From Escherichia phage REP4, in sequence record OQ174503.1: a stretch of DNA of 64,000 bases. The stretch is one strand, 5' to 3'. The translations under genes were made by a program, and so were the position numbers. Positions within the stretch are counted from its first letter, which is position 1, and each line of letters begins with the position of its first letter. Below the pieces are notes generated by a model that was given only the letters and a program-made list of their open reading frames with translations, had not been told where the DNA came from and did not search any database. Shown piece after piece: positions 30,613-33,554 of the stretch.

Positions 30613-31176
30613 TTATTTACCTAGTTTAGTTATTATAGCTTCTGCGGCAGCTTTTAGTTTAGATGCGGTGTTAATACGATTTTTAATTTCAGTATACGCA
30701 TCGCCAAGAACGTCAAGGCTATCAGAATAAACGCTTACACTATTGCGTTCGCTATTTGAAATAGAACCTTTAGTTTTACGATCAAAATCAATGTACACGT
30801 CTTGAAGATCATGGGCTGCCTTCTTTGCATCATCCAATGCATCAAGAGCTTTATTCAAAGCATTAACGTATTTTTTAGTGTCGAACATATTCTTAGAAAT
30901 TTTAACAGGCGCACGTTCAGGAGTAGCTAAGGCAGATTTAGGAACCTGAGCGCCAGATGCCAGTTTCTTAGAAATTTTGAAAAATGCTTTATTGAATTTA
31001 TTTTCTTGACTCATCGTAAAAGAACTATTATCGATGTTATACATTTCAATAGCTTTAGCTTTCCACTTAAGAAAATCGCCACGGTCTTTTGGGTCCAATT
31101 GGAAGAATACTTTAGTAAGTTCTGCTTCAGATGGTAATTTTGCTGCTTCGGTTAAAAATTCGGCATAAGTTTTCAT
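30613..31176 (-). CDS. internal-protein-like protein with capsid-targeting sequence
   Basis: 187 aa beginning MKTYAEFLTEAA; no T4 counterpart at this position that I recall. Confidence 0.55.
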   Translation of the reverse strand: MKTYAEFLTEAAKLPSEAELTKVFFQLDPKDRGDFLKWKAKAIEMYNIDNSSFTMSQENKFNKAFFKISKKLASGAQVPKSALATPERAPVKISKNMFDTKKYVNALNKALDALDDAKKAAHDLQDVYIDFDRKTKGSISNSERNSVSVYSDSLDVLGDAYTEIKNRINTASKLKAAAEAIITKLGK

Positions 31177-31263
31177 TTAAAATCCTTGAAATAATCTATC
31201 GGTTGGTTATTAATTATTTATTACTTTGTTATTATCCGTAACAGCGTTATCCGAGTGATTCAA

Positions 31264-31296
31264 ACTAAAAAGCCCCAACCTTTCGGTCGGGGCTAA
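31264..31296 (-). terminator. hairpin terminator (GCCCCGACC-GAAA-GGUUGGGGC + U5), copy 1 of a 33-bp direct repeat
   Basis: 9-bp stem with GAAA tetraloop and T5 tract on the minus strand, after the stop of the 31302-31775 gene. Confidence 0.65.
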
Positions 31297-31301
31297 GAAT
31301 G

Positions 31302-31775
31302 TTATTTGATTTGTTTAGCAGACCAAATGCGGTCTTTGATGATTTTTTGGAGATCTTCAACATACTCTAGGTCATGAGCATGTGGATTATCTTTGAAACT
31401 ATAGGCACGGGCTAATTTTTGGCCTTCGGTTTTAATTACTAAAAGCTCTTTAAGGATAGCTTCATATTTAGCGATAATTCCTTTAACAATATTTTTTTCT
31501 TGTGCAGCTTTAGGATCTGCTTTAGGAGCAGGTTTACCCGAAGCCTTTGCAAAAGCAGCACCAGTAGCAACTAAACTTTTCCAGGCCATACTAACCGCAT
31601 TTCCTGTAAATCCTTCTGCTTTCATGTCGCGAGCAAACTGGAATCGTGATTCGTCAGAAGCATCTTTATAGGAATATTTACCCGCTGCAATGGCTGCTTT
31701 TGCGACAGCTTGAATTTCGGTGCTAGATGCTTCATTTAACACCGCTTCATTTAAAAATTGAGCATATGATTTCAT
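31302..31775 (-). CDS. internal-protein-like protein with capsid-targeting sequence
   Basis: 157 aa beginning MKSYAQFLNEA; Ala/Lys-rich; late promoter upstream. Confidence 0.55.
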   Translation of the reverse strand: MKSYAQFLNEAVLNEASSTEIQAVAKAAIAAGKYSYKDASDESRFQFARDMKAEGFTGNAVSMAWKSLVATGAAFAKASGKPAPKADPKAAQEKNIVKGIIAKYEAILKELLVIKTEGQKLARAYSFKDNPHAHDLEYVEDLQKIIKDRIWSAKQIK

Positions 31776-31815
31776 CTTATTTCCTGTTTTAATTCGTGGA
31801 TTTAATATACTACTA

Positions 31816-31823
31816 TATTTATA
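31816..31823 (-). promoter_or_regulatory. late promoter (TATAAATA)
   Basis: Exact TATAAATA on the minus strand upstream of the 31302-31775 gene. Confidence 0.5.
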
Positions 31824-31855
31824 CTAAAAAGCCCCAACCTTTCGGTCGGGGCTAA
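31823..31855 (-). terminator. hairpin terminator, copy 2 of the 33-bp direct repeat
   Basis: Identical to 31264-31296 (ACTAAAAAGCCCCAACCTTTCGGTCGGGGCTAAG on the plus strand). Confidence 0.65.
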
Positions 31856-31904
31856 GCCTTGCGGCAACCTTGTCGGGGTTCCACCTGCTAAGGCAAGTGT
31901 TTGT

Positions 31905-32061
31905 ACGAAACGCCGGGATTCGAACCCGGTTATTAAGCAGTTGACGCTACTTAATATTTTTAAAAGGCCATATCTCGACCATATCCGAACGTTCCGTCAA
32001 AAACGCTACTCGGCTTACGGCAAAGATATTTCCTCGAATCGATAATTCGGTGCGCCGTTTC
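31905..32061 (-). ncRNA. putative stable small RNA with tRNA-like acceptor/T-arm (T4 species-1/rnaC-like)
   Basis: Perfect T-arm (CCGGG-UUCGAAU-CCCGG) and a closing helix GAAACG/CGUUUC, about 155 nt, no ORF, followed by a terminator; boundaries approximate. Confidence 0.4.
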
Positions 32062-32164
32062 TGCTGTGATGTAAGAGGGCATCAACAAATCATAAAGATT
32101 TATTAACACAATTCCTTACCCAGGGAACATCAGTCCGACGACTTACCGGTAGCGACCCGGTTTC

Positions 32165-32515
32165 TTAATATTCTTTTAAAGCATCAATCTGTTCACGACG
32201 TTTACGCCATAAATCAATTGCTTCATACGCAGATTCAGCATTTCGAATTGGACGGCATTTATATAAAGACTTGTGATTTTGATATTGCGTAGATAACGGA
32301 ATTTTATCTAAAAGGTCTTTACGTTCAAAGTATTCGTAACCATCTAAGCCAAATGAACGATTTTTGAGAAATTGCCAATGACCAAATTCGTTTTGAATAT
32401 AAATATAATCCGCGTGTTGATAAAGTAAATTAATTTCACGAAATGAGATATGTTTTTCATATTCATTGAAGTAAAATGTTAAATCATGAACTACTAAATA
32501 AACATTACCTTTCAT
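32165..32515 (-). CDS. hypothetical protein
   Basis: 116-aa ORF between tRNA-Arg and the small-RNA region. Confidence 0.5.
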   Translation of the reverse strand: MKGNVYLVVHDLTFYFNEYEKHISFREINLLYQHADYIYIQNEFGHWQFLKNRSFGLDGYEYFERKDLLDKIPLSTQYQNHKSLYKCRPIRNAESAYEAIDLWRKRREQIDALKEY

Positions 32516-32533
32516 ATTTTCCTCACTTATAAT

Positions 32534-32609
32534 TGGTCGAGGCAGTAGGGATCGAACCTACGACCTAGGACTTAGAAGGTCCTTGCTCTTCCTTCTGAGC
32601 TATGCCCCG
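32534..32609 (-). tRNA. tRNA-Arg (anticodon UCU)
   Basis: Hand-folded cloverleaf: acceptor CGGGGCA/UGCCUCG, anticodon loop CUUCUAA, T-loop UUCGAUC, CCA encoded. Confidence 0.85.
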
Positions 32610-32613
32610 TAAT

Positions 32614-32689
32614 TGGGGTGACCGATGGGAGTCGAACCCATGACTACGAGAATCACAATCTCGAGTTCTACCAACTGAACTACGGCCAC
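32614..32689 (-). tRNA. tRNA-His (anticodon GUG)
   Basis: Acceptor GUGGCCG/CGGUCAC, discriminator C73, anticodon loop UUGUGAU, CCA encoded; base at -1 is U, not G. Confidence 0.75.
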
Positions 32690-32802
32690 ATTAATACCTA
32701 CTCCAACAATCAAGATGTCTTCACACGAAATTAAGAGAAGAGTGATCAGTTCAACCCTATAATCGCGTCAAGTAGATATTAATGTGACAGTTGTCACAAA
32801 TT

Positions 32803-32877
32803 TGGCGGACGTGATAGGATTCGAACCTATAACCAATCGCTTAACAGGCGATCGCTCTGCCATTGAGCTACACATCC
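32803..32877 (-). tRNA. tRNA-Asn (anticodon GUU)
   Basis: Acceptor GGAUGUG/CACGUCC, anticodon loop CUGUUAA, T-loop UUCGAAU, CCA encoded. Confidence 0.75.
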
Positions 32878-32881
32878 AAAT

Positions 32882-32968
32882 TGGTGGGGAGTGATGGAGT
32901 CGAACCACCCGAGTCGCAATGACAATGGATTTACAGTCCACACCGCTACCTCTACGGGATAACTCCCC
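32882..32968 (-). tRNA. tRNA-Tyr (anticodon GUA), long variable arm
   Basis: Acceptor GGGGAGU/ACUCCCC, anticodon loop CUGUAAA, 87 nt with long variable arm. Confidence 0.7.
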
Positions 32969-32981
32969 TTAATTCTTAATT

Positions 32982-33056
32982 TGGTGGCCCTGGGTGGAAT
33001 TGAACCACCATCTGGCGATTATGAGTCGCTTGCTTGAACCTTCCAGCTACAGGGCC
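32982..33056 (-). tRNA. tRNA with anticodon CAU (Ile2-type by T4 synteny, or Met)
   Basis: Acceptor GGCCCUG/CAGGGCC, anticodon loop CUCAUAA, T-loop UUCAAUU; sits where T4 has tRNA-Ile. Confidence 0.7.
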
Positions 33057-33057
33057 T

Positions 33058-33133
33058 TGGTGCTGATTGACGGAATCGAACCGCCGACCTTCTCATTACA
33101 AGTGAGTTGCTCTACCTACTGAGCTAAATCAGC
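33058..33133 (-). tRNA. tRNA-Thr (anticodon UGU)
   Basis: Acceptor GCUGAUU/AAUCAGC, anticodon loop CUUGUAA. Confidence 0.85.
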
Positions 33134-33138
33134 AAAAC

Positions 33139-33228
33139 TGGCGGAGGCGATAGGATTTGAACCTATGAGTCGCCGGAGCGACTGCCGGTTTTCAAGACCG
33201 GTGCATTAAACCACTCTGCCACGCCTCC
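33139..33228 (-). tRNA. tRNA-Ser (anticodon UGA), long variable arm
   Basis: Acceptor GGAGGCG/CGCCUCC, anticodon loop CUUGAAA, 90 nt. Confidence 0.85.
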
Positions 33229-33230
33229 AG

Positions 33231-33304
33231 TCTCCATACAAGGATTTGAACCTTGGACCTCCTGATCCCAAATCAGGCGCTCTACCAAACTGAGCTACAC
33301 GGAG
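33231..33304 (-). tRNA. tRNA-Pro (anticodon UGG), CCA not encoded
   Basis: Acceptor CUCCGUG/UAUGGAG, anticodon loop UUUGGGA; only 2 nt from tRNA-Ser (dimeric precursor). Confidence 0.8.
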
Positions 33305-33314
33305 TAAATTAAAT

Positions 33315-33388
<74 letters not shown>

Positions 33389-33393
33389 AAATT

Positions 33394-33480
33394 TGGTGCG
33401 AGAAGTGGGACTCGAACCCACAAGGAAATCATTCCGCAGCATTTTAAGTGCTGTGCCTTTACCAATTTGACCATTCTCGC
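33394..33480 (-). tRNA. tRNA-Leu (anticodon UAA), long variable arm
   Basis: Acceptor GCGAGAA/UUCUCGC, anticodon loop CUUAAAA, 87 nt. Confidence 0.85.
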
Positions 33481-33481
33481 G

Positions 33482-33554
33482 CTGGGAATAAAGGACTCGA
33501 ACCTTTGCATCCTGGAATCAAAATCCAGTGCCTTACCAACTTGGCTAATTCCCA
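33482..33554 (-). tRNA. tRNA-Gln (anticodon UUG), CCA not encoded
   Basis: Acceptor UGGGAAU/AUUCCCA, anticodon loop UUUUGAU; 1 nt from tRNA-Leu (dimeric precursor). Confidence 0.8.

What the first reader, a model, noticed from the sequence alone, without database searches (positions are those of the whole stretch)
31858..32165. ORF-free 300-nt segment with a tRNA-like T-arm and closing helix (candidate stable small RNA)
Between the 116-aa ORF and the second terminator copy there is no plausible ORF. The minus strand contains a perfect tRNA T-arm (CCGGG-UUCGAAU-CCCGG) adjacent to a 6-bp acceptor-like helix that closes about 150 nt, an RNase P-type substrate shape. T4 encodes two stable RNAs of unknown function next to its tRNA-Arg; this looks like their counterpart, but the internal fold is not a standard cloverleaf and I could not define a second RNA in 32062-32165.
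Basis: partly seen in the sequence, partly recalled or inferred. Interest (0 to 1): 0.4.

Follow-up and report, generated by a model that had tools for sequence, protein, structure and literature searches.

The report
Phage T4 stable RNAs rnaC/rnaD
This ORF-free stretch holds this T4-like phage's copies of two small stable RNAs, rnaD and rnaC, which are annotated in phage T4 and still have no known function. The finding is therefore a rediscovery, although comparing relatives shows that rnaC is a tRNA mimic whose two side arms are tied together by a loop-loop contact.

Summary
The window comes from a Tequatrovirus and is 100% identical to phages G50 and SF2-1 over this region. On the minus strand, 31858-32168 aligns base for base with the misc_RNA features rnaD (species 2) and rnaC (species 1) annotated in phage T4.

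- **rnaD:** about 32049-32168, 93% identical to T4.
- **rnaC:** 31904-32042, 97% identical to T4.
- **Downstream:** a near-invariant 46-nt trailer, then the terminator of the tRNA operon.

It most likely borrows GAAACG from the 3' end of rnaD. Compensatory changes show the true acceptor stem is rnaC's own 7-bp CGAUUCG/CGUUUCG.

Across 28 distinct rnaC homologues from at least eight named Tevenvirinae genera plus the Klebsiella F48/Marfa phages, 35 of 54 proposed pairs show compensatory changes. The two hairpin loops, UUGACG and CGUCAA, stay complementary in all 28, through two independent double substitutions. rnaC is thus a tRNA-shaped RNA with an acceptor/T minihelix and no anticodon arm.

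The papers I could read say its function is unknown. A role as a tRNA decoy is my inference only.

Verdict: already known, and of low to moderate interest.

The parts
32049..32168 (-). rnaD (T4 'species 2' stable RNA) orthologue. The ends are mapped by alignment to the T4 annotation, not measured.
   Evidence: Aligns to T4 NC_000866 misc_RNA rnaD (71053-71171). It is 93% identical over 118 nt. Its 5' and 3' blocks are conserved in 15 distinct homologues.
32145..32161 (-). rnaD 5' hairpin H1: ACCGG-GUCGCUA-CCGGU
   Evidence: The closing pair changes from A-U to G-C in 2 of 15 sequences. The fold predicts the same hairpin. Read on the plus strand, it scores as a terminator-like site.
31904..32042 (-). 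rnaC (T4 'species 1' stable RNA) orthologue, a tRNA mimic of 139 nt
   Evidence: Aligns to T4 misc_RNA rnaC (70908-71046). It is 97% identical including short flanks. My covariance model R1 scores it at 164.7 bits, the same score as T4 itself. The fold has z = -4.1 against shuffles.
32035..32041 (-). rnaC acceptor-stem 5' strand CGAUUCG, which pairs with 31906-31912
   Evidence: the third pair is A-U in 10 sequences and G-C in 18. The two U.U positions become U-A and C-G in the Yersinia phage TG1 lineage.
31906..31912 (-). rnaC acceptor-stem 3' strand CGUUUCG, joined directly to the T-arm. It is followed by U-A-CAAA, with no encoded CCA.
31913..31929 (-). rnaC T-arm CCGGG-UUCGAAU-CCCGG
   Evidence: Two stem pairs covary, with 99% of cells paired.
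31965..32034 (-). rnaC long irregular hairpin, in the position of a tRNA D-arm. It ends in the 6-nt loop UUGACG at 31995-32000.
   Evidence: Predicted by the fold. Of its 26 pairs, 21 show changes on both sides (helices 2-6). In Kanagawa-, Gelderland- and F48/Marfa-type phages the arm sequence is largely replaced but the loop is kept.
31931..31956 (-). rnaC second hairpin: a 10-bp stem with the 6-nt loop CGUCAA at 31941-31946, which is complementary to loop 1
   Evidence: Nine of 10 stem pairs covary. Loop-loop pairing is 100% in 28 of 28 distinct sequences. There are two independent double changes, UUGAUG/CAUCAA and UUGGCG/CGCCAA.
31858..31903 (-). Conserved 3' trailer between rnaC and the terminator
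   Evidence: It is nearly invariant in Tequatro-, Mosig-, Gapriver- and Dhakavirus loci. It is retained in Dhakavirus, where rnaC is precisely absent. Trailer plus terminator fold with z = -4.3.
31825..31853 (-). Intrinsic terminator ending the tRNA/rnaD/rnaC transcription unit: a 10-bp stem, a GAAA loop and a U tract
   Evidence: The G50 record annotates it as a terminator. In T4 the tRNA-cluster transcript is reported to terminate after the species I gene (PMC2330249).
32165..32515 (-). Context: a 116-aa ORF of unknown function inserted between tRNA-Arg and rnaD. Its stop codon (32165-32167) lies inside the stretch that aligns to the T4 rnaD 5' end.
   Evidence: It matches phrog_3355 at E = 1e-52, a family of unknown function. 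It is absent at this position in T4.
32534..32609 (-). Context: tRNA-Arg(UCU), the last of 11 tRNA genes in the same orientation

Best explanation
**Identity.** The segment carries the orthologues of phage T4 rnaD (species 2 RNA) and rnaC (species 1 RNA). They are followed by a conserved 46-nt trailer and the terminator of the tRNA operon.

**Maturation (inferred).** Both RNAs are most likely transcribed as part of the long tRNA-cluster precursor and cut out of it.

**Structure of rnaC (shown here by compensatory changes).** rnaC is a tRNA mimic. A 7-bp acceptor stem abuts a canonical T-arm, giving the 12-bp minihelix that tRNA-maturation enzymes read. There are no D and anticodon arms. In their place are a long irregular hairpin and a 10-bp hairpin whose 6-nt loops (UUGACG and CGUCAA) pair with each other. 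This closes the body of the molecule and leaves no anticodon.

**Structure of rnaD.** rnaD is a separate module: a 5' hairpin plus a long rod. The base of the rod is invariant and its tip is exchangeable.

**Processing and function (inferred, not shown).**
- rnaC probably enters the tRNA processing pathway: RNase P at the 5' end, then 3' trimming and possibly CCA addition.
- It cannot decode.
- It probably acts through its tRNA-like end, most plausibly by occupying or diverting a tRNA-binding host factor. That would fit an accessory, host-dependent role.

**Confidence by part.** I put identity at about 0.97, the secondary structure at about 0.9, the loop-loop contact at about 0.8, and the decoy function at about 0.2.
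For: **Identity**
- The T4 reference record annotates rnaC and rnaD at the aligned positions.
- Identity to T4 is 97% for rnaC and 93% for rnaD.
- 761-809 phage records share the segment.

**Structure of rnaC**
- 93.3% of cells are paired, against 36-48% when the partners are slid.
- 35 of 54 pairs have changes on both sides, against 22.6 +/- 2.3 in shuffles and 6-13 when slid. Searches agree on smaller sets.

**Acceptor stem**
- A-U changes to G-C at the third pair, and the stem is a perfect 7 bp in TG1.

**Loop-loop contact**
- It is 100% paired in 28 of 28 sequences.
- Two positions changed on both sides, in different lineages.
- The stem under loop 1 is rewritten (GCGUUU/GAACGU, AGCAU/AUGCU, CACGU/ACGUG) while the loop is kept.
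- This contact was not part of the covariance model that made the alignment.

**tRNA-gene-like placement**
- rnaC sits between tRNA-Trp or tRNA-Met and tRNA-Gly in several phages, only a few nt from the upstream tRNA: Moon, Karamvirus, Gelderlandvirus and SonariX.

**Modularity**
- Dhakavirus has rnaD and the trailer but no rnaC.
- Moon, TG1, Karamvirus and others have rnaC but no rnaD.

**Transcripts**
- In T4 the precursor is reported to run through the cluster and end after species I (PMC2330249).
- RNAC and RNAD were detected as late RNAs, with a Northern blot using an RNAC probe (PMC9697503).

**Hint of a host-dependent role**
- A convergent SNP arose in rnaD when a T4-like phage adapted to E. 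coli strain ECOR34 (PMC12685909).
Against: **Function**
- No experiment assigns a function. Papers from 2010, 2022 and 2025 all state it is unknown.
- The decoy idea rests only on shape.

**Ends**
- The RNA ends in this phage are mapped from the T4 annotation, not measured.
- No CCA is encoded after the rnaC acceptor stem.
- In this phage a translated ORF precedes rnaD, so its 5' end cannot be made the way it is in T4, where a tRNA lies just upstream.

**Departures from tRNA**
- One lineage (Enterobacter phage MY742 type) has a non-canonical T-loop, UGCAUGC. Strict tRNA T-loop chemistry is therefore not required.

**Loop-loop contact**
- The pairing could be between two molecules (a dimer) rather than within one.
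- Only two evolutionary events support it.

**rnaD**
- Several rnaD helices are invariant, so they are untested.
Confidence: 0.85

Rival explanations
1. The RNAs are decayed tRNA genes (pseudo-tRNAs) carried along in the tRNA cluster, with no function of their own.
For: rnaC has a tRNA T-arm and acceptor stem and sits where a tRNA gene would sit. My recollection, not checked here, is that T4 mutants deleted for the whole tRNA region grow on laboratory hosts.
Against: rnaC is kept at full length in at least eight named genera. Its compensatory changes extend into the parts that are not tRNA-like, and it has a conserved complementary loop pair. A neutral relic would not keep 93% pairing while the long arm is rewritten.
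Confidence: 0.05
2. The segment is one RNA of about 300 nt, or about 155 nt, closed by the helix GAAACG/CGUUUC.
For: Those six bases are perfectly complementary in this window.
Against: Both strands are invariant wherever both exist, so nothing supports the pairing. The 5' strand is absent in the phages that have rnaC alone. The change in the 3' strand is compensated inside rnaC. T4 annotates two separate RNAs.
Confidence: 0.02
3. rnaC is a real, unusually long decoding tRNA of type II or Sec-like shape. ARAGORN and depositors call its Karamvirus homologue a 95-nt tRNA-Met.
For: ARAGORN calls tRNA-Met(CAU) at L005 1554-1648, and three phage records annotate it that way. Rfam tRNA-Sec gives 17.3 bits at 31905-31997. 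An internal 8-bp helix ACGGAACG/CGUUUCGU is possible in this window.
Against: The Rfam score is far below the family threshold (17.3 against 47 bits, E = 3.4). ARAGORN calls nothing in this window or in T4. The internal helix shows no compensatory change, breaks in 7 of 17 sequences at one pair and fails in TG1. The 'CAU anticodon' lies in a linker that reads UUUUAAAAA here.
Confidence: 0.03
4. One or both RNAs, rnaD especially, are base-pairing regulatory small RNAs that act on phage or host mRNAs.
For: rnaD has long invariant single-stranded stretches, while its tip is freely exchanged. A convergent SNP in rnaD was selected during host adaptation (PMC12685909). Two papers loosely call these RNAs 'regulatory'.
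Against: No target is known. BLAST of the whole segment against 5,426 complete E. coli genomes finds no similar stretch at E <= 1, although short antisense seeds would be missed. The most conserved loops of rnaC are complementary to each other rather than free.
Confidence: 0.15
5. The segment encodes a small protein, the 49-aa GTG ORF at 31960-32109.
For: The ORF exists mechanically.
Against: It starts in the exchangeable tip of rnaD and ends inside rnaC. These two modules occur separately in other genera and differ by indels. Substitutions follow base-pairing rather than codon position.
Confidence: 0.01

Closest known systems
Phage T4 rnaC (species 1 / band C RNA) and rnaD (species 2 / band D RNA)
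   Same: The sequences are 97% and 93% identical. The order (rnaD, then rnaC, then trailer, then terminator) and the strand are the same. Both sit at the distal end of the tRNA cluster.
   Different: Here a 116-aa ORF lies between tRNA-Arg and rnaD, whereas in T4 rnaD starts two bases after the tRNA. The tRNA set is also different: it adds His, Asn, Tyr and Met and lacks segB.
Canonical tRNA (Rfam RF00005)
   Same: There is a 7-position acceptor stem joined directly to a 5-bp T stem with a UUCGAAU loop. The element is embedded among tRNA genes at tRNA-like spacing.
   Different: It has no D-arm, no 5-bp/7-nt anticodon arm, no anticodon and no encoded CCA. It has two U.U mismatches in the acceptor stem and is 139 nt long. 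tRNA detectors do not call it.
tRNA-like domains of non-decoding RNAs: the tmRNA tRNA-like domain, bacterial Y-RNA-like YrlA (RF02553), and the tRNA-like structures of plant viruses
   Same: The principle is the same: an acceptor/T-arm mimic grafted onto a body that is not a tRNA. The comparison itself is from my own knowledge.
   Different: There is no tag reading frame and ARAGORN calls no tmRNA. There is no YrlA match in the segment. The element is not the 3' end of a viral genome. The closure by pairing between two hairpin loops is not a feature I know from those families.
Loop-loop 'kissing' complexes such as HIV TAR/TAR* or ColE1 RNA I/RNA II
   Same: Two 6-nt hairpin loops are fully complementary. 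The comparison is from my own knowledge.
   Different: Here both loops lie in one 139-nt molecule. Whether the contact is within one molecule or between two was not tested.

Membership tests
T4 rnaC (species 1 RNA) | Sequence homology to the annotated T4 rnaC over its full length | tested here: met
   97% identity including short flanks. Model R1 gives 164.7 bits for both the window and T4.
T4 rnaC (species 1 RNA) | Last RNA gene of the tRNA transcription unit, just upstream of the terminator | tested here: met
   PMC2330249.
T4 rnaC (species 1 RNA) | Accumulates as a discrete stable RNA of about 140 nt in infected cells | not testable with these tools
   Reported for T4 itself, with a Northern blot in PMC9697503. 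No expression data exist for this phage.
T4 rnaD (species 2 RNA) | Sequence homology to the annotated T4 rnaD | tested here: met
   93% identity over 118 nt. The 5' and 3' blocks are identical and the central hairpin differs by a few bases.
T4 rnaD (species 2 RNA) | Starts directly after tRNA-Arg, as in T4 | tested here: not met
   The 116-aa ORF (32165-32515) intervenes. The same arrangement is seen in RB69 and in many tequatroviruses, so this is a difference of context, not of the RNA.
Canonical tRNA | T-arm: a 5-bp stem with a UUCRANN loop | tested here: met
   31913-31929.
Canonical tRNA | A 7-bp acceptor stem adjoining the T-arm | tested here: met
   CGAUUCG/CGUUUCG, with 5 Watson-Crick pairs and 2 U.U. 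It covaries and is perfect in TG1.
Canonical tRNA | D-arm and a 5-bp/7-nt anticodon arm with an anticodon, meaning a cloverleaf recognised by tRNA models | tested here: not met
   No ARAGORN call. Nothing at Rfam gathering thresholds. The best Rfam match is tRNA-Sec at 17.3 bits against a cut-off of 47. The covariation-supported arms are a roughly 70-nt hairpin and a 10-bp/6-nt hairpin.
Canonical tRNA | A 3' CCA end and aminoacylation | not testable with these tools
   CCA is not encoded (the stem is followed by UACAAA). Post-transcriptional addition of CCA and charging with an amino acid need experiments.
tmRNA | A tRNA-like domain together with a tag reading frame | tested here: not met
   ARAGORN finds no tmRNA in the window.
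Y-RNA-like YrlA (RF02553) | A match to the family model | tested here: not met
   The only weak YrlA match in the stretch searched (31200-32800; 17.7 bits against 69) lies on the tRNA genes at 32584-32646, not in the segment.

The most novel reading that the evidence does not exclude
rnaC is a ring-closed tRNA mimic. It has an intact acceptor/T minihelix, and its body is locked by an intramolecular loop-loop contact. It is conserved across enterobacterial T4-like phages because it titrates or misdirects a host factor that reads the acceptor end or elbow of tRNA. One candidate is a tRNA-targeting anti-phage nuclease; another is a toxin that modifies the CCA end. rnaD would be a second, independently exchangeable host-range RNA. 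This would give a function to two RNAs annotated in T4 whose roles are still described as unknown.
Probability: 0.15. Interest if true: 0.75.

Novelty: already known. Interest (0 to 1): 0.28.

Why it matters
As a finding it is a rediscovery. rnaC and rnaD are annotated in the T4 reference genome, and most other records leave them unannotated or mislabel them as 'hypothetical protein' or as a 95-nt 'tRNA-Met'.

What could matter is the open question of their function, which the papers I read still call unknown. Rfam matched no family here. The comparative model built here gives concrete handles for experiments:
- a defined acceptor stem;
- a covarying loop-loop contact;
- a list of lineages that lack one RNA or the other.

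If these RNAs turn out to be tRNA decoys or host-range factors, they would add an RNA-based layer to phage counter-defence.

Tried and rejected
**Detectors and family models**
- Rfam at gathering thresholds and ARAGORN find nothing in the segment.
- Rfam with permissive E-values gives only sub-threshold noise: tRNA-Sec at 17.3 bits, isrK, mir-251 and anti-hemB. No curated family matched these RNAs.

**Alternative helix**
- An internal 8-bp 'acceptor' (ACGGAACG/CGUUUCGU) that would give a 93-nt tRNA-like fold was rejected by pair counts.

**Searches outside phages**
- The rnaC core pattern has no match in 185,579 bacterial and archaeal genomes.
- BLAST of the segment finds no match in 5,426 complete E. 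coli genomes.
- There is therefore no host or prophage counterpart at this sensitivity.

**Searches that added little**
- A looser viral pattern gave one hit, L027. This is a chance match in GC-rich coding DNA.
- The metagenome scan added mostly near-identical tequatrovirus copies and one F48/Marfa-type copy.

**Flanking ORFs**
- Pfam finds nothing above threshold for the three flanking ORFs.
- PHROGs places them in families of unknown function.

**Complementarity between the two RNAs**
- The rnaD hairpin loop is complementary to GUAGCG in rnaC. I noted this by eye and dropped it, because those rnaC positions are not conserved and most rnaC-bearing genera lack rnaD.

**Literature**
- The Miller et al. 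2003 T4 genome review is not held.
- A 2026 hit for 'rnaC' was a false match to 'RNACS' and 'RNAClean'.
- Searches were rejected for input errors, and one search was an empty script.
Full report
**What is at the coordinates**

All features here lie on the minus strand. Reading in the direction of transcription, the order is as follows:
- eleven tRNA genes, Gln through Arg, at 33554-32534;
- a 116-aa ORF at 32515-32165;
- the flagged ORF-free stretch;
- an intrinsic terminator with its stem at 31853-31830.

A scan for perfect 5-bp stems around a TTCRANN loop finds ten sites in the whole 64-kb window. Eight are in called tRNAs, one is this site, and one is an A/T-only chance site. Shuffled sequence gives a mean of 0.56. 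The motif is therefore real. ARAGORN and Rfam at gathering thresholds call nothing in the stretch.

**Identity**

Over 31780-32200 the window is 100% identical to Escherichia phage vB_EcoM_G50 and to Shigella phage SF2-1. It matches 761 phage records, nearly all of them Tequatrovirus and close relatives.

The T4 reference record NC_000866 annotates two misc_RNA features directly downstream of tRNA-Arg:
- rnaD, 'small, stable RNA; species 2 RNA', at 71053-71171;
- rnaC, 'species 1 RNA', at 70908-71046.

The window aligns to them base for base. rnaC maps to 31904-32042 and is 97% identical including short flanks. rnaD maps to about 32049-32168 and is 93% identical. The remaining 46 nt (31858-31903) are a trailer that also matches T4.

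The 'second RNA' it could not define in 32062-32165 is rnaD.

Most public records leave the segment unannotated or place 'hypothetical protein' over it. Only a few T4-type records label it rnaC.

**How this phage differs from T4**

In T4, rnaD begins two bases after the CCA of tRNA-Arg. Here the 116-aa ORF sits between them. It belongs to phrog_3355, a family of unknown function.

The ORF's stop codon (32167-32165) lies within the stretch that aligns to the T4 rnaD 5' end. Other phages carry a different ORF, or none, at that junction. Sequence conservation always starts at about AGAAACCGG.

**Structure of rnaC**

I collected homologues in four ways:
- BLAST against the phage collection;
- pattern scans of IMG/VR and of metagenomes;
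- fetching annotated regions from phage records;
- searching the collected loci with a covariance model, R1, built from 17 sequences.

This gave 28 distinct full-length sequences. They come from eight named genera:
- Tequatrovirus
- Mosigvirus (RB69)
- Gaprivervirus (VR7)
- Tegunavirus (TG1)
- Moonvirus
- Karamvirus
- Kanagawavirus (KLB31, Kosakonia phage 305)
- Gelderlandvirus (Melville, Proteus ABTNLPp2)

The set also includes the Klebsiella vB_Kpn_F48/Marfa lineage.

On that alignment my proposed structure has these counts:

| Measure | Proposed structure | Partners slid by 1-3 columns | Shuffles |
|---|---|---|---|
| Cells paired | 93.3% | 36-48% | 79.8% |
| Pairs changed on both sides (of 54) | 35 | 6-13 | 22.6 +/- 2.3 |
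| Covariation score | 0.448 | 0.06-0.12 | 0.189 |

The elements of the structure are:
- **Acceptor stem.** Seven positions, CGAUUCG (32041-32035) with CGUUUCG (31912-31906). The third pair is A-U in 10 sequences and G-C in 18. The two U.U positions become U-A and C-G in TG1, which gives a perfect 7-bp stem.
- **T-arm.** It follows the acceptor 3' strand with no spacer. Two of its stem pairs covary.
- **Long irregular hairpin (32034-31965).** It occupies the D-arm position. Of its 26 pairs, 21 show changes on both sides.
- **Second hairpin (31956-31931).** A 10-bp stem with 9 covarying pairs, in the anticodon-arm position.

That 5' strand lies in the 3' end of rnaD. It is absent from the phages that carry rnaC alone. 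The change in the 3' strand is compensated inside rnaC instead.

A second alternative is an internal 8-bp helix, ACGGAACG/CGUUUCGU. It underlies the weak Rfam tRNA-Sec match (17.3 bits, E = 3.4) and the 95-nt 'tRNA-Met' that ARAGORN and depositors call in Karamvirus phages. This helix shows no compensatory change, breaks at one pair in 7 of 17 sequences and fails in TG1.

**A loop-loop contact in rnaC**

The long hairpin ends in the 6-nt loop UUGACG (32000-31995). The second hairpin ends in the 6-nt loop CGUCAA (31946-31941). The two loops are perfectly complementary. Three observations argue that they pair:

1. The complementarity holds in 28 of 28 distinct sequences.
2. Two lineages changed both loops together, at different positions. 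Yersinia phage TG1 has UUGAUG/CAUCAA. The Klebsiella F48/Marfa lineage has UUGGCG/CGCCAA.
3. The stem that presents loop 1 has been completely rewritten while the loop is kept. It reads GCGUUU/GAACGU in T4-type phages, AGCAU/AUGCU in KLB31, AGUGU/ACGCU in Kosakonia phage 305 and CACGU/ACGUG in F48-type phages. The closing pair covaries as U.G, U-A, A-U and G-C.

The covariance model cannot represent this contact, so the alignment was not fitted to it.

There are caveats. Only two evolutionary events support the contact. The pairing could link two molecules rather than close one. I could not check whether the T4 papers of the 1970s, which are not in the held library, already drew it.

**Structure of rnaD**

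Fifteen distinct homologues were found, in Tequatro-, Mosig-, Gapriver- and Dhakavirus only. They show an invariant 5' block, an invariant 3' block and a central hairpin that exists in three unrelated versions.

Covariation supports these features:
- the 5' hairpin (A/G)CCGG-GUCGCUA-CCGG(U/C);
- one pair of the rod, where U-A becomes A-U;
- the UAAG/CUUA helix.

The closing helix GUCGUCG/CGGCG(C)AC never varies, so it is neither supported nor refuted. The fold is less exceptional than rnaC's, with z = -2.1 against shuffles. I found no tRNA-like feature in rnaD.

**Modularity and context**

- Dhakaviruses (VR5, AnYang, SHP1, UP19) have tRNA-Arg, rnaD, the trailer and the terminator. rnaC is excised cleanly, giving ...GCGCACCGAA|CACUUGCC....
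- Moon, Karamvirus, Gelderlandvirus and SonariX have rnaC alone, set between tRNA-Trp or tRNA-Met and tRNA-Gly only a few nt from the upstream tRNA. TG1, Kanagawavirus and the F48/Marfa phages also carry rnaC alone.
- The short flanks travel with rnaC: AAUUAU on the 5' side and ACAAA on the 3' side.
- The core rnaC pattern is absent from 185,579 bacterial and archaeal genomes. BLAST of the segment finds nothing in 5,426 complete E. coli genomes.

**How it most likely works**

*Shown here:* the identity, the folds described above, and the tRNA-gene-like placement.

*Taken from papers on T4:*
- The tRNA-cluster transcript is a precursor of about 1.75 kb. [quoted passage not shown]
- RNAC and RNAD behave as late RNAs, and the authors report validating this by Northern blot, using an RNAC probe (PMC9697503).
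- Their roles are stated to be unknown in 2010, 2022 and 2025 (PMC3014915, PMC9697503, PMC12685909).

*From my own memory, not checked here:*
- Species 1 RNA was sequenced in the 1970s and served as an RNase III substrate in vitro, which would fit the long hairpin.
- T4 mutants deleted for the tRNA region are viable on laboratory strains.

*Inferred:*
- rnaC presents the 12-bp acceptor/T minihelix that RNase P, 3'-trimming enzymes and the CCA-adding enzyme recognise. It is therefore matured and stabilised like a tRNA.
- It has no anticodon arm, and its body is closed by the loop-loop contact, so it cannot decode.
- Its most plausible mode of action is through the tRNA-like end, by binding or diverting a tRNA-recognising host factor. 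I put this at about 0.2.
- An accessory, host-dependent role fits one observation: a single convergent SNP in rnaD arose in all lines of a T4-like phage evolved on E. coli strain ECOR34 (PMC12685909).

**Comparison and verdict**

The segment belongs to the T4 rnaC and rnaD families by homology and position. rnaC is not a tRNA, because the defining D and anticodon arms were tested and not met. It is not a tmRNA and not a YrlA-type RNA.

It works like other non-decoding tRNA mimics in principle. The novelty class is 'already known'. The added value lies in three things:
- a covariation-backed structure;
- a candidate tertiary contact;
- the family's distribution and its routine mis-annotation.

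The interest of the finding itself is low to moderate.

Noticed in passing
window 31271-31294 and 31830-31853 (minus strand), with ORFs 31302-31775 and 30613-31176: The same 24-nt terminator stem-loop (AGCCCCGACCGAAAGGTTGGGGCT plus a T tract) occurs twice. Between and after the two copies lie two paralogous ORFs of 157 and 187 aa. Both belong to phrog_2280 (unknown function) and share an N-terminus of the form MK(S/T)YA(Q/E)FL. This looks like a tandem duplication of a terminator-plus-gene unit.
   Followed up: partly
window 31858-31903 (minus strand): The 46-nt trailer between rnaC and the terminator is almost invariant across Tequatro-, Mosig-, Gapriver- and Dhakavirus. It is more conserved than the centre of rnaD, and it is retained where rnaC is deleted. 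It folds into small hairpins, but with no sequence variation no structure can be tested. Its role is unknown; a processing signal or a third small RNA fragment are possibilities.
   Followed up: partly
window 31816-31823 (minus strand): TATAAATA lies a few bases after the terminator's T tract and upstream of the 157-aa ORF. From memory, this is the consensus of T4 late promoters. The second terminator copy lacks it.
   Followed up: no
window 32165-32515 (minus strand): The 116-aa ORF (phrog_3355, unknown function) occupies the tRNA-Arg/rnaD junction, which is only two bases wide in T4. Other phages carry a different ORF or none at the same point. The junction therefore behaves as an insertion hotspot, much like the segB site elsewhere in the T4 cluster.
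   Followed up: partly
window 32690-32802 (minus strand): A 113-nt gap lies between tRNA-His and tRNA-Asn, with no tRNA or Rfam call. It folds with a 13-bp closing helix (AUUAAUAUCUACU/AGUAGGUAUUAAU) and z = -2.95 against shuffles. It could be a processing hairpin or a remnant of something else.
   Followed up: partly
L005 1554-1648 (Enterobacter phage vB_Ecl_id4496), L055 574-668 (SonariX), and PG7 records: The 3' 95 nt of the rnaC homologue is annotated in public records as 'tRNA-Met', and ARAGORN reproduces the call. Covariation does not support that fold, so this is probably a recurring mis-annotation in Karamvirus-type genomes.
   Followed up: yes
L008, L023 and L031 (Enterobacter phage MY742 type), rnaC T-loop: In one lineage the T-loop reads UGCAUGC instead of UUCGAAU, while the T stem and the rest of rnaC are kept. 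The canonical T-loop sequence is therefore not strictly required. The new loop contains the palindrome GCAUGC.
   Followed up: no
L010 3794-3909; L032-L034 about 1500-1630: The apical domain of rnaD exists in three unrelated versions (window/T4 type, L010 type, and the type seen in three of the four Dhakavirus loci), grafted onto identical 5' and 3' blocks. This suggests cassette-like exchange of the tip.
   Followed up: partly
window 32534-33554 (minus strand): This phage carries 11 tRNAs: Gln, Leu, Gly, Pro, Ser, Thr, Met, Tyr, Asn, His and Arg. T4 carries 8. There is no segB gene. The tRNA-Asn gene is the reported SegB cleavage target in T2L, RB1 and RB3 (PMC2330249). The tRNA-Tyr scores only 30.2 bits against Rfam's cut-off of 29.
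   Followed up: no
window 32145-32161 (plus strand): Read on the plus strand, the rnaD 5' hairpin followed by TTTCTTAATAT matches the terminator-like consensus. It could in principle stop antisense transcription entering the tRNA cluster.
   Followed up: no
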